Of a stretch of 64,000 nucleotides of DNA, positions 1,244 to 52,552 are shown piece by piece (position 1 is the first letter of the stretch; each line of letters begins with the position of its first letter). The stretch lies in the NCBI RefSeq assembly GCF_004010195.1, contig NC_057719.1:4054897-4118896 (forward strand), given 5' to 3'. The notes under the pieces were generated by a model. That model saw nothing but the letters and a program-made list of their open reading frames with translations. It was not told where the DNA came from and ran no database searches. The stretch comes from Chiloscyllium plagiosum. Taxonomy: Eukaryota. Both the position numbers and the translations under genes were made by a program.

Positions 1244-2300
1244 ATGATGTGGAGGTGCTGGTGTTGAACTAGGGTGTACCAAGTGAAAGAATCTCTCAAC
1301 ACCAGGTTTATTTGGAAGTACAAGTTTTCAGAGCTCTGCTTCTTCGTCAGGTAGCTAATGGGGCAGTGTCATAGGACACAGAATTTACTCTAAAAGATCA
1401 AAGTGTCATACAACTTTTGAACAAGTACTGAACAAGTCGTTAAGAGTGCCGTTAAGTCTTTAATCACTTAGAATGGGGATGCAGGTTTCAAGTGATTAAT
1501 ATATAAATCTCAAAACTACTTTCAAGTCACAGTCCCGAGGTAACTTGAGGTTTTATTTTTTAAAAAAGTGACATCTCAGCTCAGACAATGCATTAAAGGT
1601 GTCAGGTTAGAGTCTGTCTGGATCTCAACCTTGAATCAGAGTGATTCTGTTTCCAAAGTAGGAATTTATAAAAATGTCACGTGGAATGACTGCTGACATA
1701 TTGTGTGCCTTATGAACAAAATAAAATATATCTGCAAATGCAAATAGACTTGTGTGTATGGGCATGCATGTGTATGTGAGGGTGCATGCGCGTGAGTATG
1801 ACTGAGTATATGCCTGTGAGTATATGAGTGGGAATGTGGGTGCGTGTGTATGAGAAAAGTCTGTGCGTTTTTTGAACAAATAACTCAATCTGTAGGCAGT
1901 CAGTCCATGTGACATTTTATAATAAAATCATTGGAACTATTTGGAAATAGAACCAGTCTGACTTAAGGTTGGGACACAGACTGTAACCTCTCTCCTTTAA
2001 TGCATTGTCTGAACTGAAATGTCATGTTTTTACAAATAAAACCCAAGTTATCTTGGGAGTGTGACTTGAAAGAAGTTCTGGGATTTATATATTAATCACT
2101 CAGCTCTCAGCCCCATTCTAAGTGATTAAAGACTTAACAGCATTTGTAGGTTTGTTCAATATGTCACATTAGTTTTATGACACTTTGATCTTTTACCAAA
2201 AATTCTATGTCCTATGATCCTCTCCACTAGCTACCTGACGAAGGAGCAGCACTTCGAAAGCTTGTACTTACAAATAAAGCTTGTGTTCTGTGATTTTTAA
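1244..2300. mobile_element. Penelope-like derived element with about 400-bp inverted arms and a TG-rich spacer
   Basis: Arms about 1303-1700 and 1890-2281 are reverse-complementary (e.g. aagtctttaatcacttagaatgggg / ccccattctaagtgattaaagactt); same terminus as the GIY-YIG-linked copy at 31229. Confidence 0.8.
2232..2266 (+). ncRNA. Minimal type I hammerhead ribozyme motif (PLE-associated)
   Basis: tac CTGACGA A GGAG cagca CTTC GAAA GC TT gta: core boxes intact, stem I tac/gta, stem II with one GU pair, AGCU palindrome at stem III. Confidence 0.65.
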
Positions 2301-4188
2301 CAATAAAGGCAAGTAGACCAATGACTGCAACTCCATTTTCAAGGAACTATGAACCAGTGCTCTAGGGGTCTGTGTTCAGCAATACTCCCCAAGCCCTTAC
2401 CGTTAAGTATATAAGTATTGCCCTGATTTGCCTTTCCAGAATGCAGCACTTCACATTTATCTAAATTTAAGCTCCATCTGCCATTCCTTGGACCATTTGC
2501 TCATCTGATCAAGATCCTGTTGTACTCTGTGGTAACTTTCTTCACTGTCCACTACACCTCCAATTTTGGTGTCATCTGCAAATTTACTAACCATGCCTCC
2601 TATGTTCACATCTAAATCATTTATATCAATGATTAAAGCAGTGGACCCAGCACCGATCCTTGCTGCACACTGCTGGTCACAGGCCTCCAGTCTGAAAAGC
2701 AACCCTCCACCATCACCCTTTGTCTTCTATGTTTTGAGCCAGTTCTGTATCCAAATAGCTAGTTCTCCCTGTATTTGTGTGCTGTAACCTTGCTAATCAG
2801 TCTACCACAAGAAACCTTGATAGTTTCAACTTAAATATTGATATGAAATATTGGAAAAGATTGAAATAAAACGGACTGCAGATGTTCGAAATCTGAAATC
2901 TGTAAACATCTAGAAGGAGAAAGCAGAGTTCATGTTTACATCCAGTGACCCTGACTCCAGTCCTGAAAAATGGTCACTCGACTTGAAATGTTAATTCTTC
3001 TTCCTTTCCACAGATGCTGCCAGAACCACAGTGTTTCTCTAGCAAATTTCATTTTTGTGTTGGAAAAGGTTAAACTGAAAGCACAGTTTGAGCGTGAGGA
3101 AAAACTGAATGGAAAGAAAACAATAATTGCTAAATTTGTTTGTAATGGTATTTAGCATTACAGATTGACTGTAATCCTGTACTCTTAACTGTTCTGATGT
3201 TTTAGTTTGATTACTGAGTTTATTTATGTCACAGTGAGTTGACAGGTTAAAATATTACTTGGTTTAGGAGGCTAGAAACTTTTTTTTTCCTTTGAACCAA
3301 TCAGAAGTCTTAAATTATTCTTCTATCATTGATGTTTGGGGCCTAACATCAACTAATTTACGCACAACAATTTTAACATTTTCAAATAAAACGCCGTGCA
3401 TTAATAGGTAATTTCAGTGTAAAGTTAAGATATTTGGTGTTATGTATGAATCTACAGGTCAAAAGGTAGGAGGTAAGTCATTTAACTCCTCAAACCACCT
3501 CTGTCATTCAGTAAGTTTATAGATGATCTGATTCTGGCCTCAACTCCATATTAATAAATCTGTTTTAACAATATTCAGTGAATCTGCCTCCATTGCTGTC
3601 TCTGGAAGGGAACTCATCTCATTGCGTACTTAAATGGAAATCCCCCCGCCCCTTTTTTTTAAAACTGTATTTCCTCTTTCCAGTCTCTGCCACAAGGCAA
3701 AGCATTCTTTCCGTGTCCAGTCTCTCAAATCCTCTTGAGACCTTGTACATTGAAAAAGGTTACCTCTCATTCTTCTAAATCCCAATATATAAAGGTTCAG
3801 CCAGTCTAACTTTTTCCTTGTAAGATAACCTGCTTATCTCCGGTAGCAATTGAGTGTATCCTTTCTAGATTGCTTCCAATGAGTCTATATCATTCCTTAA
3901 ATAAGGAATCCAAACTGTACACAATACCCCAGTTGTTGACCTATAGAAAACATCTCTACTTTCAATATTCCATTCCTAGGCAGTAAATAGCAAATTTCGA
4001 TTTCCTTCTAATCACTTGCTGTACCTGCATGCTAACTTTGATTCATGCACCAGGGTACCCAGATCCCACTGTACTTCAGAGGTATGTGGTCTTTTTCTGT
4101 TTAAATAATATGCTGAATTCCTAAACCTGCGAAAGGGAAAGTTCATATTTTCCGATGCTTTTTCCAAACCTGGTGTTGCTTTCCAAAT

Positions 4189-4393
4189 AAAAGCAAATTA
4201 CTGCGGATGCTGGAATCTGAAACCAAAAAAGAAAATGCTGGAAAATCTCAGCAGGTCTGGCACCATTTGTAAGGAGAGAAAAGAACTGACGTTTTGAATC
4301 TACGGGTCAGTTAGACTCGCAATTTCAGCTCTTTTCTCTCCTTACAGATGCTACCATACCTGCTGAGATTTTCCAGCATTTTCTCTTTTGCTG
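4189..4393. mobile_element. PLE terminus-derived foldback mini-element
   Basis: About 75-bp inverted arms (agaaaatgctggaaaatctcagcaggt / acctgctgagattttccagcattttct); gctttccaaat duplicated at 4178-4188 and 4394-4404. Confidence 0.75.
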
Positions 4394-4947
4394 GCTTTCC
4401 AAATGTTCTGTCATCCAGTCTTTTACAGTAGACCAGCGTATTTCCCCACAACTGACGTTAGTCTAACTGGTCTATAATTCTCATTTCCTCCCTTACAATG
4501 AAATGTGGTGTTACATTTGCTGCCCTCCAATGTGTTGAAACTGCTCCAGAGTCTGCAGAATTTTTGAAAGGTGACCAGTGCATCCAGTATTTCCAGGACC
4601 ACTTCCTCTAGTACTTCAGGATATGGATTATCAGCTTCTAGTCATTTGTTAGCCTTTAAATTCCCCATTAAATTCCCCAGTGCTATTTTCTTCTTAGTTC
4701 TGATTTTCTTCTGCCCAAAACACTTGCTTGGCTTCCTCTCCATTCTGGGAGGCTCTTTGTGTCTTCATTTGTGAAGACAAAGAAGAACTAAACACGTATT
4801 TTGGTTATTTGTTTCCCATTATAGCTTCCTCAGCTTCTGTCTGAAAGGGACCTACATCTGTCTTTCCTAATCTTTTTCTCTTCACTAATTGAAGCTTTTA
4901 CTACAAGCTTCTATGTTCCTTGCAATTTCTCTCTCTCACTCTATTTT

Positions 4948-5655
4948 AACATAGAACATAGAACAGTACAGCACAGAACAGGCCCTTCAGCCCACGATGT
5001 TGTGCTGACCATTGATCCTCATGTAAGGTAAACCTAATGTACGAACCATCAAATTTCTGTGACCATATGCATGTCTAGCAGTCTCTTAAATATCCCCAAT
5101 GACTTCGCTTCCACAACTGCTGCTGGAAACTCATTCCATGCTCCCACAACACTCTGCGTAAAGAACCTGCCTTTGACATCCCCTCTATACTTTCTGCCAA
5201 ATAGCTTAAAACATGACCCATCGTGTTAACAATTTCTGCCCTGGGAAAAAGTCGCTGGGTATCAACTCTATCTATGCCTCTCATTATCTTGTACACCTCA
5301 ATTAGGTCCCCTCTCTTCCTCCTTTTTTCCAATGAGAAAACTCCGAGCTCAGTCAACCTCTCTTTGCAAGATAAGCCCTCCATTCCAGGCAGCATCTTGG
5401 TAAACCTCCTCTGAACCCTCTCCAAAGCATCCACATCTTTCCTGTAATAGGGTGACCAGAACTGGACACAGTATTCCAAGTGCGGTCTAACCAAAGTTTC
5501 ATAGAGCTGCAACAAGATCTCACGTCTCTTAAACTCAATCCCCCTGTTAATGAAAGCCAAAACACCATATGCTTTCATAACAACCCTGTCCACCTGGTGG
5601 CAATTTTAAGGGATCTATGTACCTGCACACCAAGATCCTGCTGTTCCTCCACACT
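4948..5655 (-). mobile_element. CR1-like LINE 3' end
   Basis: ORF 5075-5593 LVRPHLEYCVQFWSPYYRKDVDALERVQRRFTKM; tandem acatagaacatagaac tail. Confidence 0.9.
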
Positions 5656-6018: not shown

Positions 6019-6080
6019 GCTGTTCCTGCTCAAAGAAACTCTGCCTTGGACTCAAACCAGCAAAGCATCAGTGTTCGAGG
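6019..6080 (+). other. Candidate non-coding 5'UTR exon
   Basis: tttattttaattttcttag| acceptor and AGG|GTATGT donor, 62 nt, in a non-repeat island; no transcript evidence. Confidence 0.25.
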
Positions 6081-12630: not shown

Positions 12631-15310
12631 GTTGGGAGCTGATCTGTTGATTCACAGAAGAAATGAAATGGGAGTCTGTTACACAGATAAGGGAGCTAGA
12701 ATTGTTATAATAATGACAGGAAGTGCTTACAATCTGAATTAAATGAAGTCTTAATTATGCTAAGTTATAGTCCATTTTTAGAGACTGGATTTCAGATTAT
12801 TTTTAAGACTTTTTTTAAAAAAAAAAGTCAGATTCTTCCTCTGGATCAGTGACCTAATACAGTGCATATTAGAGAGCAGGTGACTAAGCCCCTGGAGTGT
12901 TGATGGAAAGTTGTTAACCACATGATGGGTTATGGCAGCTAAAGGAAATGGAGGCTTTTTTTTCAGTTCAATATAATGAACAATTATGTTTTAGCTTAGA
13001 AAACCCAGCAATCAACAGTTTTTATTGCAGTTCAGGGAGACCTAACTGAGGTTAAAACTAAATCTGGTTTCTCTCCAAGAATTTTTTTTTTTTTTGTAAG
13101 ACAGTTCTGAGGTAGCCGTTTGCCCAGGAGTAAAGTCTAGTTTGTGAAAACTTCCAGACTGGGAATATTGGTTAGAAATCTTCAGATTAATATAGGTTGG
13201 GAAGGCCTTAGCCCTGATCTATGAATATCGTGTCAGACAATTCTGCAATTTATAGGAAACAAACTTGTGAAAGGTTTGATATCAGTAGTTTGGATTGAGG
13301 TGTGTTATAGAATAGTATTGAGAAACCGGTTGGAACCTTGTTTTGCTGTGTTTTAAGATCTTTCTGACTGTATTTTATATTTAAATAACTTGTTTATTTT
13401 ATTGGTGTAATAAACCTCTGCACTGTTGTTGATGGAACTCTCTAGCTTTGTGTGACTGTTTCAGTGCCTAACTGCCACATTAATTAAAAAGTATACATGA
13501 TCTTCCAAGATTGATTTTGTTCTGGGATCTGAATTGTCTGGTGGTACCATTAGCCGAGATCCTAATATGTGTAACTCTTGACTAGGATTTGAAGTAATGG
13601 AATTTAAGAGGAATCTATGTCTCTTACTAGTATTACTGATATTCTGGACATTACCTATGAGTGTTGTGAAGCAGTTTATTGCATTGATTCGGTTTTTAAC
13701 ATGTATTTGACTGTTACTAAGAATTTTCTGAGTATGGAACCCAGACCTGAGTGTTATCACTTGAAGATAAAGTAAAATGAGGAAATGGAAACCACTCAAA
13801 TATCAGAAGTGAGGAAAGTGTCCATCTGGTAGTTCATTTCATTATTGTAATGAAATATTTAGAGGCTTACACATTCCAGTGACAGGTCACTGGGATAGAA
13901 AAATGAAAACACTATTTTTCTTGCCCAAAATTACATTTAAAAGATGACTGTTTTTGTATTTATGCCATACATACCAGTTAGTATCATACCTATCAATCGA
14001 TGAAAAACGTGCTTTAATCCCAACACCAGCTTTCAAAGAACTGTTTATCAGAATCTAAATAAATTCTTGAGGAACTCCACTAAAGCAAGGAATGGGCGTT
14101 TTTTTTTACAATTTATAGATGTTTGAACAAGGTTTCCTAATACAGTGCCATTAAGAAAAATGGCTGTGACAATGGTAGTGGATAAGTTATTTCCATTTTC
14201 TTTTACAATGTATGAATTGCCCAAAGAAATGCAGTCAGATCAAGGTTCAAATTTTGTGTCATAAATATTCAGAGCACTGGAGGCCTGTGACCAGCAGTGT
14301 TTCACAGGTTTTGGTACTGGGTTTTGTTTTGCCATTTATAGAAGTGATTTGGATGAAAGCATAGGAAGCATGGTTGGTAAGTTTGCAAATGACAAAATTG
14401 GTGGTATAATGGACAGAGAAAAAGGTTATCTAAGGTTACAAAGAGATCTTGATCAATTTGGTCAATGGGCTGAGGAATGGCAGATGGAGTTTAATTTGAA
14501 TAAATGTGAGGTATTGCATTTTGGTTATACAAAAAGGACATGCCATATAATGGTAGGGCTCTGGGTAGTGTTGTACACCTAGGCCTCCTGGAGTAGTATG
14601 CACTTCTGGTTGTCCTATTATAGGAAAGCTAATATTAAGCTGGAGAGGGTTCAGAAGAGATTTACCAGGATGTTGCCAGGAATGGAAGAATTGAGTTATA
14701 AGGAGGGGCTTGATAGGCTAGCACTTGTTTCACTGGAGCGTAGGAGGTTGAGGGGTGACTTAGAGGTCTATAAAATCATGAGGGGCATAAATCAGGTGAA
14801 TGAAAAGGGCCTCTTCCCTGTAGTGGAGGAGCTTAAAAAGGACGAGTCACTACTATTTCTCTGTGGTTGTGGTATGTGGAATGAACTGCCAGAGGAAGTG
14901 GTGGATGCAGATACAGTTACAACGCTTAAAAGGCATTTGCATAAGTACATGAGTAGGAAAGATTTGGAGGGATATGGGCTAAGCGCAGGCAGATGGGACT
15001 AGTTTACTTTGGGAACATGGATAGTGTGGACTGGTTGGACCAAAGGGTCTGTTTCCGTGCTGTATGACTCGAAATGATACATCTTATCACCTATATCATC
15101 TGCTTATCAATAATCTCAGGTGGTTTTTAGAAAGATGAAATAAAACGAAACTTCATTGACCATAAGACCACAATTAGAGTTTTAGTCATGAATATACTTA
15201 TAATAATTCCCTGATTACTGTTTGCTATTAGGGATGCTCCTAATGAATACACAGGATTCAGTCCTTTTGAAGAGATATATTGCCCGAGGGTGAAAGAACT
15301 ACTTAAATTA
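12630..15310 (+). mobile_element. Decayed Gypsy-like LTR retrotransposon: putative LTR about 12630-13568, integrase remnants about 13850-14275 and 15070-15310, split by a CR1 insertion
   Basis: Hand translation gives ALIPTPAFKELF, TRFPNTVPL, LPKEMQSDQGSNF (about 14218-14255) and LLFAIRDAPNEYTGFSPFE (about 15215-15271), typical integrase core motifs; putative LTR has imperfect inverted ends and AATAAA near 13409. Confidence 0.7.
14280..15070 (+). mobile_element. CR1-like LINE 3' part
   Basis: ORFs 14349-14582 (KFANDKIGG, WAEEWQMEFN) and 14598-15002 (LERVQKRFTRMLPG). Confidence 0.9.
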
Positions 15311-15311
15311 G

Positions 15312-19390: not shown

Positions 19391-20976
19391 TCCCATTTTT
19401 GTTGACGCTGCATTAATATTTTTCTTTTTAAATTCTTTTCATTATTCCAATAATCTGGTTATCAAAACCAGATTAGAATAGTTTAGATGGATTCTAAAAT
19501 TCAAGTTTTAGGATTTTTGTAATGAATGGACACCTTAAATTAAGTAATCCTAACTAGGAATGTATTTGCTATCAGTCCAAACCTTAAACACAATTCATAT
19601 CTGTCTCAGAACACGCATGAATCTTGGTGTGAGAAAATTTTGATTTTTAAGTTGATATGAAACCTTTTTCTTACATAATGAACTTTTGTTCTAAAGATCC
19701 AGGAAGGATCAAATTAGTTGCATGATGAAAATTAAACCGTAAAGCCAAGTCCTAATGAAGGATTAAACCCAAACAACAGCCTCTTATTTACTGTTTTGTA
19801 GATGTAATCACAGCTTCAGCTTTTTTTACATGAGATGTGGCCATTGCTGGAATTTGTTGCTCTAATTGCTTTTAAACTGAATGGTTTGCTAAGCCATTTT
19901 TAGAGGGCAGTTAAGAGTCAAAAGCATTGCTTCTGGTTTGGAGTGACATGAACCTTCCTGAATAAAAGTTCATTATGGAAGAAAAGGATTAATATCAATG
20001 TTTTTTCTCTTAAATATCAACATTTTCTCACTTGCCTCAAGATTCATGTGTTCTATGATAGATATAAATCGTGATACTGTTTTGGATTGAATATCAAATA
20101 CTTTCATAGATAGGATTATTTCATTCAAGTTTTCCATTCATTCCAAAAGTGCTGTTGAAGCTCGAATACTAGACCACAGATTGTGCATTTAACTCTCTAA
20201 ATGACATTAAGCGAATCAAAAAAATGATAACTTTGAGGTATTTTCCCCCAGTATGTTATTAAGACATTGAGTCACAAGTGAAATCCCATATGACTAACTT
20301 GTAGTTGCCATTACTGAAACTAGATTTGTGTTCCAGATTCAACCATTTTTCATGAAGCCAAACACCTAGAAGTTAATCTGGGCCTCTTACAATTTGAGAG
20401 GATTGATTAAAGTACCAAAGGTGTTTAACATAACTGATTAAAGGTACAGTAGAAATAAGGGCTTTTTGACTGGCGTCAGATTAAAGTGTGACTTGTTGGA
20501 GATGACATTACATTAGTTTATGGTTAGTACAATAAAGATATATCATTTGCACTGATGACTGAGATTTCAATGAATTCACACATTTCATTTAGAAAAGTTA
20601 GTTTGCATGCAGTGTGTTTAGAATTTGGACTGCATAGGTCTAAACCTGGGGACAGTGGTGATTTCAACATAAATATGCGGATTGTTCTCTAAATCATTTA
20701 ATTTGTTATTGGTTACTTGCAAAAATGCCAAGGTAGTTTCAGTTTAGTAAATACATTTACTCGTTCCACAAAACTTAACTTTAAAACAGCACCTGCTGTG
20801 GAGCTTTATAAAATGGATTCCTGAACATCTAGTTATAACCTTTAATGAGTTTAGTTAGGTCCTTGCCTATGATGGAATAATCGTATGGAATCATACAGTA
20901 GAGAAGAGGTCCTTCAGCCCATTGAGTCTGTACTGCCTACAATAGTCCCACTTTTCCACACTTATAACATGGCTCA

Positions 20977-21390
20977 CTGCCTCTATTTCTGATGAAGGGC
21001 TTTTGCCCGAAACATTGATTTTCCTACTCCTTAGATGTTGCCTGACCTGTGCTTTTCCAGCACCACTCTGATCTAAACTCTGGTTTCCAACATCTGCAGT
21101 CCTCACTTTTGCCTAGTTGATTTTAACCTTACTGTGAATCCTCTTGCAAGGATGCCTACCTTGAAGAAGTTCTCCCCCTCGATCCACAAGAATCTGAGTC
21201 GCTCTCGCTCTCGCTCTCGCTCTCGCTCACTGCAACCCCCAGGTCATCTCCTCTGCCCTGAAGCTCTTGCTCTTTCCCTATATCTCTCCACCCTGGAGGC
21301 TTCCTGCCTCTATTCCTGATGAAGGGCTTTTGCCCAAAACGTTAATTCTCCTGCTACTCGGATGCTGCCTGACCTGCTGTGCTTTTCTTC
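20977..21390 (+). mobile_element. PLE remnant with direct terminal repeats carrying two tandem hammerhead motifs
   Basis: ctgcctctattYctgatgaagggcttttgcccRaaac at about 20978 and 21304; cores at 20989 and 21316; internal (cgctct)n microsatellite at about 21200-21228. Confidence 0.75.
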
Positions 21391-25259: not shown

Positions 25260-26030
<771 letters not shown>

Positions 26031-27015: not shown

Positions 27016-28440
27016 GTAAGTACTTTTTAAAATAATTGTTTGAGTGCAGCAAGTAATCAGGAAAGCTAATGGAATGTTGGCCTTTATTTCAATGTGGTTG
27101 GAGTATAAGAACAAAGAAAATTACAGCACAAGAACAGGTGCTTTGGCCCTCCAAACCTGCGCCAATCCAGATCCTCTATCTAAACCTGTCACCTATTTTC
27201 TAAGTATCTACACCCCTCTGCTCCCTACCCATTCATATATCTGTTTAGATGCATTTTAAATGGTGCTATCATGCCTGCCTCCTCCACCTCTCACTTTGAA
27301 CTCATGACCCCTAGTAATTGAGTTCCCCACTCGGGAGGGGGGAAGATGCTTCTTGTTGTCCACCCTGTCTACACTCCCATGACCTCAATTAGTTTCTCCC
27401 CCCCCCCCCCCCCCCCTCAATCTCTGTCTTTCTAATGAAAATAATTCTTATCTACTCAACCTCTCTTCATAGCTTGCACCCTCCATACTAGGCAACATCC
27501 TGGTGAACCTCCTCTGCACCCTCTCCAAAGCATCCACATCCTTTTGGTAATGTGGCAACCAGAACTGTTTGCAGTATTCCAAATGTGGCTGGACTAAAGT
27601 CTTATACAACTCAAACATGACCTGCCAACTCTTGTACTCAATACCCTGTCTGCTGAAGGAAAGCATGCCATATGCTGCTTTGACCACACTATCAACTGCG
27701 TTGCCACCTTTAGGGAACAATGGACCTGAACACTCATCTCTCTGGGCATCAACGTTCCCCAGGACTTTTCCATTTACTGTATAGTTCACTCTTGAATTGT
27801 ATCTTCTAAAATGCATCACCTCTCATTTGCCCAGATTGAACTCCTCCTGCAATTTCTCTGCCCAACTCTCCAATCTGCTGTACTCTGTATGTTCTGCTGT
27901 ATTCTCTGACAGTCTCCTTCTCTATCTGCTACTCCACCAATCTTAGTGTCATCTGCATACTTATCAGACCACCTATACCTTCCTCCAAATCATTTATGTA
28001 TATCACCAGCAACAGTAGTCCCAGCACGAGTGCCTGTGGAACACCACTGGTCACAGTTCTCCAGTTTGAGAAACTCCCTTCCTCTGTCTCCTGTTGCCCA
28101 GCCATTTCTTTATCCATCTAGCTAGTCCACCCTTGACCCCATGCAACTTCACTTTTTCCATCAGCCTATCATGGGAATCCTTATCGAACACCTTGCTGAA
28201 GTCTATGTATATGACATCTACAGCCTTTCCCTCATCAATCAACTTTGTCACTTCCTCAAAGAATTCTATTAGGTTGGTGAGACATGACCTTTCCTGCACA
28301 AAACCATGATGCCTATCACTGATAAGCTCATTTTCTTCCAAATGTGAACAGATCCTCTCCCTCCGTATCTTCTCCAGCAGCTTTCCTACCACTGATGTCA
28401 AGCTCACTGGTCTATTATTACCTGGATTATCCCTGCTTAA

Positions 28441-28634
28441 GGAGAAAGTGAGGTCTGCAGATGCTGGAGATCAGAGCTGAAAATGTGTTGCTGGAAAAAG
28501 CAGCAGGTCAGGCAGCATCCAGGGAACAGGAGAATCGACGTTTCGGAAGAAGGGCTTATGCCCGAAACGTCGATTCTCCTGTTCCCTGGATGCTGCCTGA
28601 CCTGCTGCGCTTTTCCAGCAACGCATTTTCAGCT
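28441..28634. mobile_element. Young PLE terminus-derived foldback insertion (72-bp hairpin)
   Basis: Arms 28475-28546 and 28562-28634; ttatccctgcttaa duplicated at 28427-28440 and 28634-28647. Confidence 0.9.
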
Positions 28635-28706
28635 TATCCCTGCTTAAACAAGGGGACAGCATTGACATTTCTCCAGTCCTCTGGGACCTCACTTGTGTTC
28701 AAGAAT

Positions 28707-29100
28707 GTTACGGTTCTGTTCGCCGAGCTGGGAATTTGTGTTGCAGACGTTTCGTCCCCTGTCTAGGTGACATCCTCAGTGCTTGGGAGCCTCCTGTGAA
28801 GCGCTTCTGTGATCTTTCCTCCGGCATTTGTAGTGGTTTGAATCTGCCACTTCCGGTTGTCAGTTCCAGCTGTCCGTTGCAGTGGTCGATATATTGGGTC
28901 CAGATCGATGTGCTTATTGATCGAATCTGTGGATGAGTGCCATGCCTCTAGGAATTCCCTGGCTGTTCTGTTTGGCTTGTCCTATAATAGTCGTGTTGTC
29001 CCAGTCGAATTCATGTTGCTTGTCATCTGCGTGTGTGGCTACTAAGGATAGCTGGTCGTGTCGTTTCGTGGCTAGTTGGTGTTCATGGATGTGGATCATT
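28707..29100 (-). mobile_element. Penelope-like element 3' end (GIY-YIG C-terminal part), third family
   Basis: IHEHQLATKRHDQLSLVATHADDKQHEFDWDNTTIIGQ (ORF 28914-29108); hammerhead motif in the terminus. Confidence 0.8.
28743..28782 (-). ncRNA. Minimal type I hammerhead ribozyme motif
   Basis: Minus strand gca CTGAGGA T GTCACCT agac AGGGGAC GAAA CG TC tgc: intact core, stem I gca/tgc, longer stem II, ACGU palindrome, GUC triplet. Confidence 0.7.
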
Positions 29101-29667
29101 ATCCACATATCGTTTATCCATAGGACAAACAGGAAGTCCGCTAACGATCCGCAATTTGGACTACTTAAGTACTGCTCTGGAAAACCCTCCTGGATGCTTC
29201 TTACAAATTGTGCTCCATCTAGACCTTCAACACTAATTGAATCCCAGTCAATTATGGGAAAGTTAAAAATCTCCCATCACCAAGACCCTGTTACTCCTAC
29301 ATCTTTCCATAATCTCACATATTTGTACCTCTATCTCATGCTCACTGTTGGGAGGCCTGTAGTACAGCCCCAACATTGTTACCACATTCTTTTGATTTCT
29401 GAGCTCTGTCCATATTGCCTCACTGCTTGAGTTCTCCATAGTACCCTCCTTCAGCACAGCTGTGATATCCTCTCTGACCAGTAATGCAACACCTCCTCCC
29501 CTTTTACTTACCCCTCAATCCCGCTGAAGCATCGATATCCTGGGATATTTAGTTGCCAATCATGCCCTTCCCTCAACCAACTCTCAGTTATAGCAATAAC
29601 ATCATACCCCCAATTACTAATCTAAGCCCTATGTTCATCTGCCTTACCTACTACATTTCTTGCAGGT

Positions 29668-31228: not shown

Positions 31229-32105
31229 AGTCATACAACACCAGGTTATAGTCCAACCGGGTTATTTGAAACCACAAGCTTTCAAAGTGCTCCTCTTTTG
31301 TCAGGTAAGTGAAGAAGAATACACAGGCACAGAATGTATAGGCAGAGAGTTCAATAGGCAGAAAGATCATACAAGTGGTATGAATGGAATGTCGAAAGGC
31401 TGAGTTATAAGTTTCTGTAGGTGATCAAAAGTGTCCGACTGTGTGAATAAAGTGTCAGTAACTGAATTGCAAATGAAGGGATGACCAATGATCTGATTAA
31501 TTGAGGCAGAGAGATAATTGCAAAAAAATTAAAATAAGGTGGAATAATGTGCTAGGTATAAGAGTTGCATGCTGAGGGTCAAAGCAAAGGAACAAGTAAT
31601 CCACAGCTGTACAAACTAATTGAGGTACATCATAACAAGTTATCAAGATGGTGTCAGAACCGGACAGGATGAAGATTTTTACAGGTATAGAACAGTAAAG
31701 TGGGTTTACATGCAGCGCAGCATGAACTCAAGATCATGATTGAGGCAGTCTTCATGGATACGGAACTTGACTCAGTTTCTGCTCAGTGATTGTGTTTCTC
31801 AACAGCCACCTTGGAGGGTGCTTACGCAAAGATTGGAGATTGAATGTCCTTGATTGCTGAAGTGTTCCCGACTGAGAGGGAACACTCCTGCCTGGCATTT
31901 GTTGTGCGGTGTCCATTCATCATTGTCATAGCGCCTACATGGTCTTGCCAATACATCATGCCTCAGAGCATGCTTGCCTGCATCTTGTGTGGTAGACAAC
32001 ATTAGCCGTGTCACATGAGTATCTCCCATATACGTGGTGGGTGGTGTTGCCACACGTGATGATAGTAGTTATGTTAATGATCTGACACGTCTTGCAGAGG
32101 AAGTC
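31229..32105 (-). mobile_element. Penelope-like element 3' part (GIY-YIG endonuclease plus terminus)
   Basis: GRYSCDTANVVYHTRCRQAC (ORF 31956-32171); terminus caacaccaggttatagtccaac shared with 1244 and 25865. Confidence 0.75.
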
Positions 32106-34026: not shown

Positions 34027-34062
34027 AATCTACGTTTCGGGCCTGAGCCCTTCATCAGGAAT
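34027..34062 (-). ncRNA. Minimal type I hammerhead ribozyme motif
   Basis: Minus strand attc CTGATGA A GGGC tcag GCCC GAAA CG TA gatt. Confidence 0.65.
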
Positions 34063-35983
34063 GAGGCTGGGAGCCTCCGGTGGAGAGAGAAATGGGAGTG
34101 GGGCTGGGGCTGGGGTGAAGGTACTGAGTGCACAATAGATGGATGGATGGAGGAAGGGGTAAAGGTGATAGGTCAGAGAGGAGGGTGGAGCAGATAGGTG
34201 GGAAGGAAGATTGACAGGTGGGACAGGTCATGAGGGCAGTACTGAGCTAGAAGTTTGGAACGGGGAGGGGGGGGGTGGGGGGAGGGAAAATGAAACTGGT
34301 GAAGTCCACATTGATGCCCCGAGGCAGAAGATAAGGCATTCTTCTTCCAGGTGTCAGGTGGCAAGGGAGTGGCATGAGGAGGCCCAGGGCATGCATGTCC
34401 TCAGCAGAGTGGGAAGGGTAGTTGGAATGTTCGGCCACAGGACAGTGGGGTTGATTGGTGCGGGTGTCCCAGAGATGTTCTCTAAAGCACTCTGCGAGTA
34501 AATGTCTAGTCTCCCCAGTGTAGAGGAAACTGCATCGCGCGCAACAGATATAATAAGTGACGTGTGGAAGTGCAGGTGAAACTTTGATAGATGTGGAAGA
34601 CTCGTTGGGGCCTTGGATGGAGGTAAGGAGGGGAGGTGTGGGTGCAGGTTTTGCAATTCCTGGGGTGGCAAGGGAGAGTGGCTTTTTAGGGGGCGTGGAC
34701 CTGACCAGGTAGTTGCAGAGGGAATGGTGTTTGCGGATAGGGATGGGGAAAGAAATATATTCATGGTGGTGGGCTCCATTTGTAGATGGAGGTTGGTGAG
34801 GTGGAAGGTGAAGACTTGGGTGGGGGGGGGGGGGGGAACGGTGTTCTGACCTTGTTGTGGTTGGAGGAGTGGGGTTCAAGGGCAGAAGTGCAGGCTGTGG
34901 ATGAGATGCATTCGAGGGCATCTTCAACCACCTGGGAGGGGAAACTTCGGTCTTTAAAGAAGGAGGCCATCTGAAGTGTTCTGTGGTGGAACTGGTCCTC
35001 TTGGGAACAGATGCAGTAGAGGCGGAGAAATTGGGAATGCTGGATAGCATTTTTTTGCATGCGGTAGGGTGGGAGGAAGTGTAATCCAGGTAGCTTTGGG
35101 AGTCGGGCTAGTTTTTTTAAAAAAATACCAGTGTTGAGTCGGTCCTCATGGATGGAGAGGTCTAGAAAGAGGAGGGAGGTGTCAGATATGGTCCAGGTGA
35201 ATTTAAGATTGGGATGGAATGTGTTAGTGAAGTTGAACTGTCCAGCCTCCTTATGGGAGCTGGGTGTGGCGCCAATGAAGTCATCAGTGTAGTGGAGGAA
35301 GAGGTGGGGAGTGGTGCTGGTGTAACTCCAGAAGATGGATTGTTCTGTGTAGCTGACAAAAAGACAGGCATAGCTGGGGCCCATGCGGGTGCCCATGGCT
35401 ACCCCTTTTGTCTGGCGGAAGTGGGAGGATTGGAAGGAGAAATTGTTGAGGGGGAGGATCAGTTCAGCCAAGTGTATGAATGTCAGTGAAAAGGTACTGG
35501 TGGGGACATCAGGAGAGGAATAAACTGAGGGCTTGGAGGCTCTGGCCATGGCGGATGGAGGTGTAGAGGGACTGGATGTCCATGGTGAAGATGAGGCATT
35601 GGGGGCTGGGGAAACTGAAGTCTCTGAAGAGATGGAGACCGTGGGTAGTGTCTCAAATGTATTTCTGGAGTTCCTGGACCAGGGGGATAGGATAGTATCG
35701 AGGTAGGTGGAGATGAGTTCAGTGGGGCAGGAGCAGGCTGAGATGATAGGACGGCTGGGGTAGTCAGGTCTGTGGAGCTTGGGTAGGAGGTAGAATCTGG
35801 CGGTGCAGGGTTCCCCACTGAGGTTAGAAGTTGTGGGTTGGAGATCCCCTGAGGACAGCTGTCAATCTCCCTTCCCACCTATCACCTTTACCCCCACCTC
35901 CATCCACCGATTGCACTCTGTTACCTTCTCCCCAGCACCACCCCCTCCCATTTATTTCTCCATCCCGGAGGCTCCCAGCCTCC

Positions 35984-36019
35984 TTCCTGATGAAGGGCTC
36001 CAGCCCGAAACAACATCGA
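35984..36019 (+). ncRNA. Hammerhead ribozyme motif with expanded loop III
   Basis: ttc CTGATGA A GGGC tcca GCCC GAAA CAACA TC ga; core intact, stem I only 2 bp. Confidence 0.5.
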
Positions 36020-36115
36020 TTTTTCCTGCTCCTTGGATGCTGCATGACCTGTTGTGCTTTTCCAGCAGCACACTCTTAACTTTGATCTCCAGCATCTGCA
36101 GCCCTCACTGTCTCC

Positions 36116-37669: not shown

Positions 37670-39205
37670 TAGAGTCATAGAGATGTACAGCACAGAAACA
37701 GACCCTTTGGTCCAACCCATCCATGCCAACCAGATATCCCAATCCAATCTAGTCCTGCCTGCCAGCACTTGGCCCATATCCTTCTAAACCCTTCCCATTC
37801 ATATACCCATCCAAATGCCTTTTAAATTTTGCAATTGTACTAGCCTCCACCACTTCCTCTGGCAGGTCATTTCATGCACGTACCACCCTCTGCATGGAAA
37901 CGTTGCCCCTTAGGTCTCTTTTATATCGTACCAATCTCACCCATACCTATGCCCTCTAGTTCTGGACTCCTGCACTCCAGGGAAAAGACTTTATCTATTT
38001 ATTCTATCCATGCCCCTCATTTTATAAACCTCTATAAGGTTACCCCTTAGCCTCCGACACTCCATGGAAAACGGTCCAGCCTGTTTAGCCTCTCCCTATA
38101 GCTCAAATCCTCGAACCCTGGCAACAATCTTGTAAATCTTTACTGAACCCTTTCAAGTTTCACAATATCTTTCCGATAGGACGAAGACAAGAATGGCACG
38201 CAATATTCCAACAGTGGCCTAACCAATGTTCCTGTACAGCTGCAACATAACCTCCCAACCCCTGTACTGAATACTCTGAACAATAAAAGAAAGCATACCA
38301 GCCACCTCCTTCACTATCCTATCTACCTGTTTTCAAGGAGCTATGAACCTACACTCCAAGGTCTCTTTGTTCAGCAACACTCCCTACCATTAAGTGTATA
38401 AGTCCTGCTAAGATTTGCTTTCCCAAAATGCCGCACCTCACATTTATCGGAATTAAAGTCCATCTGCCACTTCTCAGCCCATTGGCCCATCTGATCAAGA
38501 TCCTGTTATAATCTGAGGTAACATTCTTTGCTGTCCACTGCACCTCCAATTTGGTGTCATCTGCAAACTTACTAACCCTACCTCATATGCTCACATCCAA
38601 ATCATTCATGTAAATGATGAAAGGTAGTGGACCCAGCACCGATCCTTATGGCACTCCACTGGTCACAGGCCTCCAGTCTGAAAAACAGCGCTCCTCCACC
38701 ACCACCTTCTACCTTTTGAGCCAGTTCTGTATCCAAATGGCTAGTTCTCCCTGAATTCCGTGAGATCTAACTTTGCTCATCAGTCTCCCATGGGGAACCT
38801 TGTCGAACGCCTTACTAAAGTCCATGTAGGTCACATCTACCACTCTGCCCTCATCAATCCTCTTTGTTACTTCAAAAAAACTCAATCAAGTTTGTGAGAC
38901 ATGATTTCCCATGCACAAAGCCATGTTGACTATCCCTAATCAGTCTTTGCCTTTCCAAATACATGTACATCCTGTCCTTCAGGATTCTTTCCAACAACTT
39001 GCCCACCACCGAGGTCAGGCTCACTGGTCTATAGTTCCCTGACTTGTCCTTACCACCCTTCTTGAACAGTGACACCACGTTTGCCAACCTCCAGTCTTCC
39101 GGCACCTTACCTGTGACTATGAATGATACAAATATCTCAGTAAGAGGCCCAGTAATCATTTCCCTAGCTTTCCACAGAGTTCTAAAGTACACCTGATCAG
39201 GTCCT
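37670..39205 (-). mobile_element. CR1-like LINE 3' 1.5 kb
   Basis: VPEDWRLANVVSLFKKGGKDKSGNYRPVSLTSVVGKLLE and HGFVHGKSCLTNLIEFF (38872-39279); 3' tail at 37670. Confidence 0.92.
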
Positions 39206-39224
39206 AGTATTGGTATTGAGGTAT

Positions 39225-40400
39225 TTTTTGACTTCAGTATCTGTGGAAGTCCGAATAATATTGAACATTGTGCAACCATTGTGGAGCATGCCTATTTCTG
39301 ATCTTGTGATGGTGAGAAGGTCATTGAGGATGACCATGAAGATGGTTGCACCTGGGACACTACCTTGAGGAACTCCTGCAATGATGTCGTGGGTGGAGTT
39401 AATTGACCTTCAATACTCGCAACTAACTTTCTTCATGGTAAGTACGACTCCAATTACCAGAGTGTTTTCCATTGATTTCCTTTTGACTTCAGTTTTGCAA
39501 GGGTTGCTTAATGCCGTAATCTGTTAAAAACTACCTTTATGTCAAGGACAGTCCTTCTCACCTTACATCCTGGTGGTCAGCTGTTTCATGCTCTAATGAG
39601 GCCAGAAACTGTGTGGCCCTGGCCGAACCTATATTGAATCATTGTGAGCGGGCTGTTCTTTTTCAAGGCCACATGCTAGCATGGTCAGTTTGATCAAGAA
39701 TACACTGGCCAGTAATTGTCTGGCTTGACATTGTCCTGCATCTTTGTGTACCAAATATATCTGAGCAACTTTATCACGTTGTTAGGTAATGCCATTGTTG
39801 TAGCTGTGAATTGGAACAACTTGGCTGGCGTAAGAATGGTTCTGGAGCACGTTTGTTTATTACCAGAATGTTGACATGGTCCAAAGTATGTGTATATGCT
39901 ACCTTCAACTTTTTTTTATTATATAGAGTTAATCAAATTGTCTGAAGACTGGCATCTGTGATGCAGGGGATTTCTGAAAGAAGCACAAGTGGATAGCACT
40001 TCAGGCTAAAGCAGGTTGCAGATGCTTCCACTTTACCTTTTTAACTGGTGTGCTCAGCTGTGCCATCATTGAGGTTGGGATATTTGTGTCATCTTTTCTA
40101 TCTGTTAGTTATTTCACTATCCACAACCATTCATGACAGCTCTGCCGTACTGACACATCCTAAGATCTGATTTGTTGGTTGTGGAATCATTTAGTTCTTG
40201 CATTACATCCTCCTCCTGCTTGGCATGAAAGTAGCACTTCATAATATGTTTTCAGGTTGACACCTAATTTTTAGTTGCCTGATGCTGCTCCTTGCATGTC
40301 CTCCTGCATTCTTCATTGAACAAGGGTTGATTCCCTGATTGAATGCTAATGGTAGAGTGAGTCTATGCAAGGTCATAAGATTAGATATTCTGGTCAAGCT
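39225..40400 (-). mobile_element. Decayed L2/CR1-clade LINE fragment
   Basis: Similar to 33800-33960 and 36120-37100 (cccaggtgc and ggagttcctcaagg on the minus strand, GVPQG). Confidence 0.6.
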
Positions 40401-48230: not shown

Positions 48231-48311
48231 CCAGACCCCTCCATAAGACCATGAAAAACTGCAAAAGGAGTAGGCCATTTGGTCTCAAGAGCTTGCTTCA
48301 CCATTGAATAG

Positions 48312-48621
48312 GACATGGTGGCACAGTGGTTAGCACTGCTGCCTCACAGCGCCAGAGACCCGGGTTCAACACCCGCCTCAGGCGACTCTGTGTGGAGTTT
48401 GCACATTCTCCCCGTGCCTGTGTGGTTTCCTCCGGGTGCTCCGGTTTCCTCCCACAATCCAAAAATGTGCAGGTTAGGTGAATTGTCCATGCTAAATTGC
48501 CCGTAGTGTTAGGTGAAGGGGTAAATGTGGGAGAATGGGTCTGGGTGGTATACGCTTCGGCGGGTCGGTGTGGACTTGTTGGGCCGAAGGGCCTGTTTCC
48601 ACACTAAGTAATCTAATCTAA
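48312..48621 (+). mobile_element. HE1/V-SINE-like SINE, well preserved
   Basis: ggtggcacagtggttagcactgctgcctcacagcgccagagacccgggttcaa head; taatctaatcta tail. Confidence 0.88.
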
Positions 48622-49254
48622 TAAAAAGACATGGCTGATTCTACGTTCCTCATGTCCACTCTCCTACCCTTTCCCTGTAACCTTTGTTTCCCCTGCTGAT
48701 CAAAAATCTGTCTCAGCCTTCAGTATACACATGGACTGTGCCTACAGCTGAATCCTCTGAGAAGAAATTTGTCCTCAACTCAGTCTTAAATTGGCCCTCT
48801 TTTATTCTGAGACTATGGTGTGTGGTCCCAGACACTCTGAGGGGGAACATCCTCTCAGATTATACTTTATCAAGTACTGTAGGAATCATCAACAAAATAA
48901 AAACCACAGAACTGCAGATGCTCGAAACCAGAAACACAAACACAAAATGCTCAGCAGATCTGGCAACATCTGTAGAGGGAAATCAGTTAACATTTTGGGT
49001 CATTCTTTTCTTTTTGTTTTTATCTTTCTTTTCTTTCTTTGTCTTTTATCTTTTTTATTCATATTTTCTCTGCTTTCCTTTTTTTCCACTGAAGCAACTC
49101 CACAGCTTTTAACTTCACATCTGGTGATTCTTTTGTGATTTAAGTTTGAATTATTAAAAATAAATCACAAATCCAACAGTTTGGAAAGGGATATCTCTAA
49201 CTTTGAATTCTTTCCATGACTCATTTTAACGTTGTTTCTTTTTTGTTAAATCAG

Positions 49255-49415
49255 ATGTGTGAGGAGAATCCTTCATGCCCTCGGATCTTGGGACTGACTG
49301 CCTCCATTTTAAATGGTAAATGTGACCCTTCTGAGCTAGAGGAGAAAATTTTGAAGCTGGAAAAGATTCTCAGGAGCAGTGCAGAGACTGCCACTGACCT
49401 GGTAGTGTTGGACAA
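49255..49415 (+). CDS. DICER1: DICER1 exon 6 (motif III, LTAS)
   Basis: 161 nt; aatcag|ATGTGT to GACAA|gtgagt; [53 protein letters not shown]. Confidence 0.97.
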
Positions 49416-50479
49416 GTGAGTTGTAGACACAGTCTAGTTTCTTATTCTTCACTGTATGCTAATATCAAGAGGTACATTGTTTTTGAAGGTTAGTATTGTG
49501 AAGATTAGTGCCTTCATCTTTCCCTTTAAGGCTGATTTATGTTTTGATCTTGAACTTGATTGTGTCTACCTGCTGCAAATATTATCAGGTGGTCACAACC
49601 CTTTTGCTGGTATGATTATGCAAACTAGCCATGGCTGAGCAATATTGCTCTGAAAACCCAAAAGGATGATGGATATGGAAAGTAGAAAATTCACATTAGT
49701 TCTCCAGAATCAGATTCTTAAAGTATTTCTGGCATAGAGTAATGTGGGCTTTGACTGCTGTGTAGGGCACAAACAGTGCAAATTGATTGAATTTGTTTCA
49801 TGTCTGTAGTTAACCAGTAATGGACCAACTTCCCTAGTTGACATTTTTGCAGAATGGTGTGGCAGTTCACTTCAGAGGACAGTGAATGAAACATAATGTG
49901 ACACAAATTTTACATGCAGGCCAAATGGTACAAATGGGAAGTCAGTGTCACTGTGAAACACATTTTGAGGGGAGTGTGCAACAGGTCAGCATCACTTGTG
50001 GCACAGATTGCTAGAGCAAACTGGTGGGAGATGGAAACTGGTGCAAAAAGCCCCTTTGCCCTGTTCCTACCTTTCAGATCCAAAATGAGACGATAAATAA
50101 AATCAGGGTAGTGATAAGTAGGTATTTTTTCCATGTCCTTTTGATTTGGCTAAGTGATTTAAATTTAGTGGTATTATTATTGCTGAAGAATACAGTTAAG
50201 AAATTGACTTTTAAGCTAAAGAGCCTCCAAATTTATTTAACAAATAAAACAGGATAGAAGTGCTGGGAAGGCAATTTGTTACAGCTGTGGTATTTGGGAA
50301 CTGGAGGATGCTGCTGCGATCCACGGTGAATATATCCACACAGCAAGTATTCAAGCAACTTTGGGTCAGCGGTGTAGACACTGCAAAACATCAGGAAGGG
50401 AGAGAGTTAGTCATAGTTATACAGTATGGAAACAGACCCTTTAGTTACTTGAAATTACATCAAATTTCATCTGTGGTTG

Positions 50480-51565
50480 AGGATAGGAGGCATGTGACTG
50501 TTAGGCAGATCTAGCTACCCAGGATGTAACTTTGAAGGAGCATCAACCAGGGCATTTGACCAGTAGGTATGAACCCCCAAAGAGATTCTTGCTGCTGCTG
50601 AGGGTGAGGGCATCAACTGCAGGAACAATGTGCAAACTGACCAAAGCATAGTAGTTCAGAGCACCATTGAAGTAGATGGGAAAAAGAGCAATGTGGTAGC
50701 AATTAGCGGTAGCATATTTAGGATAAGAGATACTGTTCTCTGCAGTAAAGACAAAGAGTCCCCAAGGTTCTGTTGCCCATGAGGTGCTAATGTTTAGGAT
50801 ATCACTTTTGGGCTTAGAGTTGAAAGGGAATGAGCCAGTTGTTGCAGTCCACATAGGTACCAACAACCTGGGTAGATCAAGAAAGAGGTTCTCCTGAGGG
50901 GTTACAAACAACTCAAAATTATAAAGCAAGTAGTAGAACTAGGGATGTAGATACCATTTTAAACTAAATGGCGGAGGGAGGTTCAATTCTAGGGAAGTTC
51001 TAAAAATAAAAAAACAAGAAAGAAATGATAGCCAATGTACAGAGGAATGTAGAGGCAAATGATAATCAAAGTGATAGGGAGGAGCAGAAGATACAAGAAA
51101 AGTGCAGCAAAAATTGGAATTAGAGTAGATAGATAATGGTGAAAGTTTAAAGCTCTTTATTTGAATGCACTTGTATCAAGATCGATGAGTTAATTGCATA
51201 AATAGAAGTAGACGTCCATGATTTCATGGTTGTTACAGAGACATGGCTGCCAGGTGACAAAAGGGAGGGAGTCGATATTTAAAGGGGTTCGTCATTCTGG
51301 CAAATAGACAAAAAGTAAAAGACGATGAAATAGCTTTGTTAATAGAGGACAGTACCTGTGTGGCAGAGAGTAGGTGTATTAGTAGTGATTTTAGATCTTG
51401 ATATGGAATCAGTTTGGGCAGAAAGAAGGAATACCAAAAGAAAGAGCTCATGGGAGCAATAGTTTCTGAGCCCCCAAAGAGGTGACTCACTGTAGAACAA
51501 AGTATAAATCAGGAAATGATTGTGTAAACAAGGCAATACAATTGCCGAGAGTCCTATTGACTGGA
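50480..51565 (+). mobile_element. Decayed CR1-like LINE 5' region (ORF1 esterase and endonuclease start)
   Basis: gtccacataggtaccaac (VHIGTN) and gttacagagacatggctg (VTETWL) motifs. Confidence 0.6.
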
Positions 51566-51569
51566 CTGG

Positions 51570-51910
51570 ACGGCATGGTGGCTCAGTGGTTAGCACTGCT
51601 GCCTCAGTGCCAGAGACCTCTAGCAAATGTCTGTGTGGAGTTGGCACAATCTCCTTGTGTCTGCATGGGTTTCCTACAGGTGCAGCGGTTTCACCCTACA
51701 ATCCAAAGATGTGCAGTTTAGGTGAATTGGCCATGCTAAATTGCCTGTAGTGTTCAGGAATGTGTAGGTTAGGTGCATTAGTCAGGGGTAAATACAGGCT
51801 AATAGGGTAGGGATATGGCTCTGGGTGGGTTACTGTTAGGAGAGTGGATGTGGAATTGTTGGGCTGGAGGGCTTGTTCCCACACTGTAGGGATTCCGTGA
51901 TCCTATGAAA
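51570..51910 (+). mobile_element. HE1/V-SINE-like SINE
   Basis: ggcatggtggctcagtggttagcactgctgcctcag head and V-domain-like centre. Confidence 0.8.
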
Positions 51911-51989
51911 TCAAATGGGGCGATAGTAACATGATGAATTTGTACAGTGCATCAGAGATTGTTAGAGCAGTACTACTTGCGCAATCTTC

Positions 51990-52552
51990 GAGAGAAAGTG
52001 AGGGCTGCAGATGCTGGAGATCAGAGCTGAAAATGTGTTGCTGGAAAAGCGCAGCAGGTCAGACAGCATCCAAGGAACAGGAGAATCTACGTTTCGGGCA
52101 TAAGCCCTTCTTCAGGAATGAGGAAAGTGTGTCCAGCAGGCTAAGATAAAAGGTAGGGAGGAGGGACTTGGGGGAGGGGCTTTGGAAATGCGATAGGTGG
52201 AGGCAGGTCAAGGTGAGGGTGATAGGCCGGAGTGGGGTGGGGGCGGAGAGGTCAGGAAGAAGATTGCAGGTTAGGAAGGCGGTGCTGAGTTCGAGGGATT
52301 TGACTGAGACAAGGTGGGGGGAGGGGAAATGAGGAAACTGGAGAAATCCGAGTTCATCCCTTGTGGTTGGAGGGTTCCTAGGCGGAAGATGAGGCACTCT
52401 TCCTCCAACCGTCGTGTTGCCATGATCTGGCGATGGAGGAGTCCAAGGGCCTGCATGTCCTTGGTGGATTGGGAGGGGGAGTTGAAGTGTTGGGCTACGG
52501 GGTGGTTGGGTTGGTTGGTCCGGGTGTCCCAGAGGTGTTCTCTGAAATGTTC
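51990..52552 (-). mobile_element. Penelope-like element 3' end, with a hammerhead motif at 52084-52119
   Basis: FREHLWDTRTNQPNHPVAQHFN...LGTLQPQGMN (ORF 52271-52606); minus strand attc CTGAAGA A GGGC ttat GCCC GAAA CG TA gatt. Confidence 0.88.

What the first reader, a model, noticed from the sequence alone, without database searches (positions are those of the whole stretch)
2232..52119. Minimal hammerhead ribozymes from three Penelope-like families, with covarying stems, across the DICER1 locus
Seen: the same architecture, stem I - CUGANGA - one extra nt - stem II - GAAA - 2 nt - UH - stem I, recurs in three PLE termini that share little other sequence. Family A (20989+, 21316+, 34027-34062 -, 35987+, 52084-52119 -) has stem II GGGC/GCCC and usually ACGU. 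Family B (2232-2266 +) has GGAG/CUUC, AGCU and stem I tac/gta. Family C (28743-28782 -) has GUCACCU/AGGGGAC, ACGU and stem I gca/tgc. Core letters stay fixed while the stems change and still pair. Established: PLEs carry minimal type I hammerheads with a very short palindromic stem III that cleave as dimers. Inference: these are shark members of that class, some possibly still active; I cannot tell whether these families have been described.
Basis: partly seen in the sequence, partly recalled or inferred. Interest (0 to 1): 0.72.

Follow-up and report, generated by a model that had tools for sequence, protein, structure and literature searches.

The report
Penelope retroelement ends carrying minimal hammerheads
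These motifs are real copies of a tiny hammerhead RNA motif already known from Penelope-like jumping genes, left an estimated 290,000 times across this genome as mostly dead fragments, so their presence at DICER1 is likely incidental, although many shortened copies start just in front of the motif, which likely marks where the element's RNA begins.

Summary
Five of the seven listed motifs have an intact minimal type I hammerhead layout. 21316+ has lost G12, and 35987+ has a 3-nt insertion in stem III. Four further copies were missed. All three families are pseudo-LTRs of Penelope-like elements: A and B are Neptune-type, C is Poseidon-type. Across 10 lineages 67 of 70 stem pairs are kept (shuffles 38 ± 3). 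A 1.15-Mb sample gave 95 intact motifs (82 per Mb, about 290,000 by extrapolation), so the window's 5-6 is the genome average. No DICER1-sense copy inside the coding region is intact. This kind is published (Cervera and De la Peña 2014); I found no shark description in five paper searches. Cleavage is untested: no intact ORF was seen and RNA reads showed no pile of ends. One extra signal: 14 of 69 non-fold-back family A copies start at -4/-3, on an initiator-like motif, which suggests transcripts begin at the ribozyme. A pile-up at the cut site was not convincing. The scan has noted the same kind many times before (720 findings, at least 34 genomes), including the start-site pile-up.

The parts
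2232..2266 (+). Family B (Neptune-type) minimal hammerhead, intact layout, AGCU palindrome, UU cut site; about 81% identical to family consensus
1319..1353 (-). Family B hammerhead in the inverted partner copy (insertion about 1248-1773 minus, 1870-2281 plus); palindrome lost
20989..21016 (+). Family A hammerhead, core intact, stem III ACAU (not palindromic)
21316..21343 (+). Family A hammerhead with G12 changed to A; 327 nt downstream of 20989 on the same strand
28506..28603 (.). Family A fold-back insertion; the plus arm (28544-28571) starts 2 nt into the core
28743..28782 (-). Family C (Poseidon-type) hammerhead, intact, ACGU, GUC cut site; A9, the extra U and G10.1 form an AUG; 97% identical to consensus; antisense to DICER1
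28917..29096 (-). C-terminal GIY-YIG remnant of the family C element, upstream of its pseudo-LTR
31276..31304 (-). Family B hammerhead with G8 changed to A
34027..34062 (-). Family A hammerhead in the 3' pseudo-LTR of a decayed Neptune-type element; intact layout; antisense to DICER1
34247..35861 (-). Frameshifted RT and GIY-YIG remnants of the family A element
35987..36017 (+). Family A hammerhead in the inverted 5' copy of the same insertion; 3-nt insertion in stem III
52084..52119 (-). Family A1 hammerhead, intact layout, 97% identical to consensus; endonuclease remnant upstream (52271-52615); antisense to DICER1
53938..53965 (+). Decayed family A hammerhead (core changed)
25309..25422 (+). 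First DICER1 coding exon found (host context)
54563..55039 (+). DICER1 frame with Dicer partner-binding domain (host context)

Best explanation
The motifs are minimal type I hammerheads in the pseudo-LTRs of three Penelope-like retroelement families, scattered as truncated and inverted copies, and in the parent elements they likely cut the element's RNA after UH, as a dimer and probably with help from protein. Shown: the motif, its covariation between lineages, its link to RT and GIY-YIG frames, its copy number, and a pile-up of family A and B 5' ends just before the core. Inferred: transcription starts 4-9 nt before C3. Two hammerheads in one tandem transcript would pair through the ACGU or AGCU palindrome to build stem III. 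Cutting at the first would remove a short capped 5' piece (about 32 nt in A; in C it would carry the AUG), and cutting at the second would define a unit-length RNA that could be circularised. The window's copies are likely passengers: those with an intact layout inside the DICER1 coding region are antisense to it.
For: Layout and chance: 63 motifs in 767 kb against 0-3 in each of 10 shuffles; 95 in 1.15 Mb, with an extra nt in 93 of 95, a CG or GC centre in 68 of 95 and CA or TG (CpG decay products) in 22 more. Covariation: 67 of 70 stem pairs over 10 lineages, shuffles 38.3 ± 3.4, 0 of 20,000 reach 67; the first stem I pair occurs as C-G, A-U and U-A. Parent elements: A has RVT_1 E 2.8e-6 and GIY-YIG E 6.5e-4 in one frame; B has RVT_1 E 7.1e-9 and a GIY-YIG-like frame upstream of the motif; C has DKG and GIY-YIG-like motifs, and L192 holds two same-strand motifs 2205 nt apart plus an inverted one. 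Exact-pattern counts: A 43,439, B 552, C 3,415, controls 0. 5' ends: 14 of 69 non-fold-back A copies start at -4/-3, where A1, A2 and A3 have a YYANWYY match with its A at -4; 5 of 23 B copies start at -9 to -6, 30-33 nt after TATAAA. Literature: min-HHRs in fish PLEs cleave weakly as dimers (PMC4209133); the anole Poseidon hammerhead cleaves only with protein and its ORF starts at stem II (PMC11167929).
Against: No cleavage data. Energy folding of consensus pairs did not give the catalytic dimer fold. Family A1 and A3 stem I is only 2 bp. No full-length intact ORF in the loci examined. RNA reads show no place where many molecules begin or end. Cut-site starts: 3 of 69 A copies against 1.0 expected, 0 of 23 B copies; the genome-wide lists are confounded. 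Both family A Pfam hits are below gathering score; C has no Pfam hit and its RT core reads N in the loci fetched. The start windows were chosen after seeing the data. In the anole element cleavage was not needed for insertion in vitro (PMC11167929), and D. virilis Penelope has a TATA-less internal promoter with the start 46 bp before an intron (PMC2377424).
Confidence: 0.85

Rival explanations
1. The hammerhead fold is kept for a job other than cutting, such as a protein-binding site, a promoter element or a translation start, or it merely rides along.
For: Family C's motif overlaps the upstream stop codon and the downstream AUG. Anole mutants that cannot cut still insert in vitro (PMC11167929). 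Naiad PLEs thrive without canonical hammerheads (PMC8557442). No clear cut-site footprint here.
Against: All catalytic-core letters and the UH site are fixed in 10 lineages whose stems differ, though the search that defined lineages required the core. C3G and G8C abolish cleavage in the anole homologue (PMC11167929).
Confidence: 0.12
2. The short copies are an independent non-autonomous element (retrozyme-like) that moves as a small hammerhead RNA circle.
For: Most copies are short: only 23 of 143 A copies reach 100 nt upstream. Tandem retrozymes derived from pLTRs are reported, including in one chondrichthyan (bioRxiv 10.64898/2026.07.22.740005).
Against: Copies are dispersed singles or inverted pairs (74 of 143 A copies are fold-backs), not head-to-tail arrays, and longer ones run into RT and GIY-YIG frames.
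Confidence: 0.05
3. The copies at DICER1 have been co-opted to cut or regulate DICER1 pre-mRNA.
For: Two same-strand A copies 327 nt apart (20989, 21316) could formally build one hybrid core if both are in one transcript.
Against: Density equals the genome average (5-6 seen, about 5 expected). Sense copies inside the coding region (28544, 35987, 53938) are all damaged. The hybrid would have an A-C mismatch in stem III and a UU cut site.
Confidence: 0.02
4. The motifs are chance matches to a short descriptor.
For: The loose pattern gives about 8 chance matches per window; two hits at 20552 and 32121 are unrelated to any family.
Against: About 60-fold excess over shuffles, family structure, and unrequested features (extra nt, palindrome, stem I pairing).
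Confidence: 0.01

Closest known systems
Minimal hammerheads (min-HHR) of metazoan PLE pseudo-LTRs, Cervera and De la Peña 2014 (PMC4209133; parts 1-2 of 4 read; two supplementary files searched, one could not be)
   Same: Type I, no real helix III, palindromic 15.2-16.2, extra nt between 9 and 10.1, G10.1-C11.1, several families per genome, mostly single or on opposite strands; reported in fish Xena, Poseidon and Neptune elements.
   Different: About 290,000 extrapolated here against about 4,000 (coelacanth) and 9,000 (Xenopus) there, with different descriptors. Family A has a 4-bp stem II and a 2-4-bp stem I, shorter than the schistosome motifs. No shark term in the supplements searched.
Poseidon element PAc of Anolis carolinensis (PMC11167929; passages and second part of main text read)
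   Same: Family C has the ORF start at stem II, with the cut site 28 nt after the A of AUG (26 bp in PAc); no zinc-knuckle linker.
   Different: PAc is biochemically tested (protein-assisted cleavage); family C is not, and no intact ORF was seen.
Neptune-clade PLEs (as defined in PMC8557442, passages read)
   Same: [quoted passage not shown]
   Different: Assigned by motif only; no tree was built.
Non-LTR retrozymes (bioRxiv 10.64898/2026.07.22.740005; part 1 of 5 and passages read)
   Same: Type I hammerheads derived from pLTRs; one chondrichthyan sampled.
   Different: Retrozymes are tandem arrays; these copies are dispersed ends of autonomous families.
Lünse, Weinberg and Breaker, RNA Biol 14:1499 (not held; known only through citation in PMC6765202)
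   Same: Cited for small PLE hammerheads that cleave as dimers.
   Different: Could not check whether it lists shark sequences.

Membership tests
PLE minimal type I hammerhead | Core boxes CUGANGA, GAAA and UH in type I order | tested here: met
   5 of 7 listed copies have the full layout; 21316 lacks G12, 35987 has an insertion; all 10 lineage consensuses have it, but the search required it
PLE minimal type I hammerhead | One unpaired nt between positions 9 and 10.1 | tested here: met
   93 of 95 sampled motifs; the descriptor tried 1 before 0
PLE minimal type I hammerhead | G10.1-C11.1 closing pair | tested here: met
   G-C in 8 of 10 lineages, G-U in 2 low-copy ones
PLE minimal type I hammerhead | Palindromic stem III centre | tested here: met
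   CG 51, GC 17, CA 14, TG 8, other 5 of 95; not required by the descriptor
PLE minimal type I hammerhead | Compensatory changes in stems I and II between families | tested here: met
   67 of 70 pairs; shuffles 38.3 ± 3.4; lineages are related, so this is not a probability
PLE minimal type I hammerhead | Self-cleavage after UH as a dimer | not testable with these tools
   Needs a cleavage assay; RNA lay uninformative
Penelope-like element (EN+) | Single ORF with RT followed by GIY-YIG endonuclease | tested here: met
   A: both Pfam hits in one frame, below gathering score. B: RVT_1 above cut-off, GIY-YIG by motif only. C: motifs only, RT core reads N, no Pfam hit
Penelope-like element (EN+) | Pseudo-LTRs, 5' truncation, adjacent inverted copies | tested here: met
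   Window 34027-36110 and 1248-2281; L192; 74 of 143 A and 29 of 52 B copies are fold-backs
Penelope-like element (EN+) | RT phylogeny within PLE clades | not tested
   No reference RT set was on hand
Neptune clade (families A, B) | CX2-5CxxC linker between RT and EN | tested here: met
   C-X4-CxxC in L158 and in L195, L196
Penelope/Poseidon clade (family C) | Absence of the CX2-5CxxC linker | tested here: met
   L190 frame runs from RT C-terminus to EN without it
Non-LTR retrozyme | Head-to-tail tandem arrays with a hammerhead in each unit | tested here: not met
   17 same-strand neighbour pairs under 4 kb among 95 motifs, mostly of different lineages; no array seen; genome-wide arrays not searched

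The most novel reading that the evidence does not exclude
In these elements the hammerhead is the very 5' end of the transcript. RNA starts 4-9 nt before the catalytic core, so self-cleavage would strip the cap (and in family C the start codon), switching the RNA from message to template or circle. The many genomic stubs that begin at that point would be run-off copies of uncut RNA, giving a genome-scale record of cut versus uncut templates.
Probability: 0.4. Interest if true: 0.55.

Novelty: new member of a known kind. Interest (0 to 1): 0.27.

Why it matters
The class is known, so the catch adds new family members and a very large copy number. Its value is as material: the role of PLE hammerheads is described as still unclear (PMC8557442), and young families with tens of thousands of copies and covarying lineages give ready constructs for cleavage assays and a way to map element transcript ends from DNA. 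Nothing here points to an effect on DICER1.

Tried and rejected
Rfam scan: no hammerhead family; 15 matches at E <= 1, all below gathering score, 14 of them miRNA models on fold-back hairpins. Pfam on the window's decayed PLE frames: 0 hits in 4 of 4. Intact element search: none full-length in 24 family A loci or in 7 C and 10 B loci; many contain N. Cut-site footprint: family C 17 of 100 listed start at the cut against about 6 per other position, but 7 of the 17 are ambiguous fold-back junctions (hand count, 100 of 121 matches); family A 16 of 100 at the cut against 14 at +5, and at least 8 of the 16 are explained by CpG decay or microhomology (hand count, 100 of 6,158). Judged inconclusive. 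Untemplated G before the start: G in 3 of 9 copies starting ATTC, against 16 of 66 at control junctions; inconclusive. Core versus flank identity within families (95-98% against 92-93%) is biased by the alignment filter and was not used. MAFFT alignment of 14 copies misregistered family B, so pairs were counted by core anchoring instead. Dimer energy folding did not return the catalytic fold. No RNA holder was listed for the DICER1 stretch. Run X20 laid 0 reads. The DICER1 5' UTR could not be mapped, so whether 2235, 20989 and 21316 are intronic is open. The bacterial promoter scan is not applicable.
Full report
Observation. All seven motifs are at the stated places. Five have the full minimal type I layout: 2235+, 20989+, 28779-, 34058- and 52115-. 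The 21316+ copy has lost G12 and the 35987+ copy has three extra bases in stem III; 20989+ has ACAU instead of a palindrome. Four further copies were found: B 1350-, B 31304-, A 28544+ (truncated inside the core) and A 53938+. Rfam returned no hammerhead model.

Host context. The window holds DICER1 on the plus strand (Pfam), with the first coding exon found at about 25309-25422. Inside the coding region the intact-layout copies (28779, 34058, 52115) are antisense, and the sense copies (28544, 35987, 53938) are damaged. The copies at 2235, 20989 and 21316 lie upstream of the coding exons; whether they are in 5' UTR introns is open. That the host is a shark was not tested; earlier AI notes call this genome shark-type.

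Parent elements. Family A: the window's 34027-36110 insertion has decayed RT and endonuclease frames with an inverted terminal copy. A relative (L158) gives RVT_1 E 2.8e-6 and GIY-YIG E 6.5e-4 in one frame, both under gathering score. Family B: loci L195-L201 show RT motifs, a C-X4-CxxC linker and a GIY-YIG-like end upstream of the motif; L197 gives RVT_1 E 7.1e-9. Family C: GIY-YIG-like frame without the linker, and L192 carries two same-strand motifs 2205 nt apart plus an inverted copy; no Pfam hit, and the RT core reads N. By the linker criterion in PMC8557442 (passages), A and B are Neptune-type and C is Poseidon-type. No tree was built. In C, A9, the extra U and G10.1 form an AUG, as described for the anole element PAc (PMC11167929). 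No full-length intact ORF was seen in 24 A, 10 B and 7 C loci.

Abundance and chance. Exact patterns match 43,439 (A), 552 (B) and 3,415 (C) places, with 0 for reversed controls. In 80 evenly spaced 10-kb stretches a strict descriptor gave 63 motifs against 0-3 in each of 10 shuffles. In 120 stretches (1,152,850 non-N bases, all from the largest contigs) it gave 95, or 82 per Mb, about 290,000 by extrapolation. The window's 5-6 intact cores match the expected 5.3, so DICER1 is not enriched.

Covariation. Over 10 lineage consensuses (6 large, 4 from 3-6 copies), 67 of 70 positions in stems I and II pair, against 38.3 ± 3.4 when 3' partners are shuffled between lineages. The first stem I pair is C-G in 5, A-U in 3 and U-A in 2. 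Lineages are related and were found through the core, so this supports structure but is not a probability. The palindrome, which the descriptor did not ask for, is present in 68 of 95 motifs, and 22 more are CpG decay products.

Copy ends. Using an anchor downstream of the cut site, 143 A and 52 B copies of at least 85% anchor identity were mapped (of 174 and 57 anchored; C gave only 3). Among copies without an adjacent inverted arm, 14 of 69 A copies start at -4/-3 relative to C3 (about 1 expected locally), where all three A subfamilies have a YYANWYY match with its A at -4. Five of 23 B copies start at -9 to -6, 30-33 nt after TATAAA. These windows were chosen after seeing the data, and the YYANWYY and TATA consensuses are recalled. 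I saw the clustering first; the reading as a transcription start was taken up from earlier scan notes and then tested. Stalling of reverse transcription at the hairpin is an alternative, and D. virilis Penelope has a different, TATA-less promoter (PMC2377424, passages). An excess at the cut site was not convincing: 3 of 69 in A, 0 of 23 in B, and the two genome-wide lists are confounded by palindromes, CpG decay and microhomology (hand counts of the first 100 rows).

RNA. On 28450-29150, 1,981 reads of run X19 were laid at 90% likeness, from many family members; X20 laid none. Reads run about 8 to 1 in the element's sense over the family C motif and about 1.7 to 1 over family A, if the usual strand convention holds. 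No place had a pile of starts or ends. A poly(A) single-cell library cannot show cleavage ends, and internal priming can bias strand, so this neither shows nor excludes activity.

Mechanism. Shown: motif, covariation, PLE linkage, copy number, start pile-up. Inferred from published work: dimer cleavage through the palindrome, weak in vitro (PMC4209133, parts 1-2 of 4; PMC6765202, passages), and protein assistance without being needed for insertion in vitro (PMC11167929). Inferred here: transcripts begin just before stem I, so a cut would remove the cap, and in C the AUG, and a second cut in a tandem copy would define a unit RNA.

Novelty. The kind is published for fish Neptune and Poseidon elements. 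Five paper searches and a supplement search (one file not searchable) found no description of shark PLE min-HHRs; one preprint reports retrozymes and PLEs in a sample that includes one chondrichthyan (its supplements were not seen). Lünse et al. could not be read and Repbase was not available, so these families may already be catalogued. The scan has 720 earlier notes with these words in at least 34 genomes. Verdict: a correct catch, new members of a known kind, interest 0.27.

Noticed in passing
window 857-985, 4227-4385, 28506-28603, 57878-58011: Fold-back insertions of PLE ends form long hairpins that score as miRNA precursors in Rfam below gathering score; two lie in DICER1 introns. About half of sampled family A and B copies are fold-backs, a possible source of double-stranded RNA.
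   Followed up: partly
window 20989-21343: Two same-strand family A copies 327 nt apart, separated by a short simple repeat, could formally form one hybrid core (catalytic strand from the first, UU site from the second) with one stem III mismatch.
   Followed up: partly
family A lineages, e.g. L135:8-47 and L064:9030-9069: The most abundant subfamilies A1 and A3 have a U-U mismatch at the third stem I pair, while A2 has a full 4-bp stem I.
   Followed up: partly
window 5075-5605, 14583-15002, 27448-27822, 28051-28470, 38872-39291: Decayed reading frames that look like CR1-type LINE reverse transcriptase pieces (label recalled from motifs, no call).
   Followed up: no
L169:2108-6779: About 4.5 kb of purine/pyrimidine simple repeat 13-18 kb before the window start, giving stop-free frames on both strands.
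   Followed up: no
L167, L105, L142, L091, L196, L218, L162: At least five rarer, older hammerhead lineages with different stems (two Poseidon-like, three family A-like); one decayed copy is at window 2963.
   Followed up: partly
window 1-64000: No 1-kb bin has CpG observed/expected above 0.5, so the DICER1 promoter may lie outside the window.
   Followed up: no
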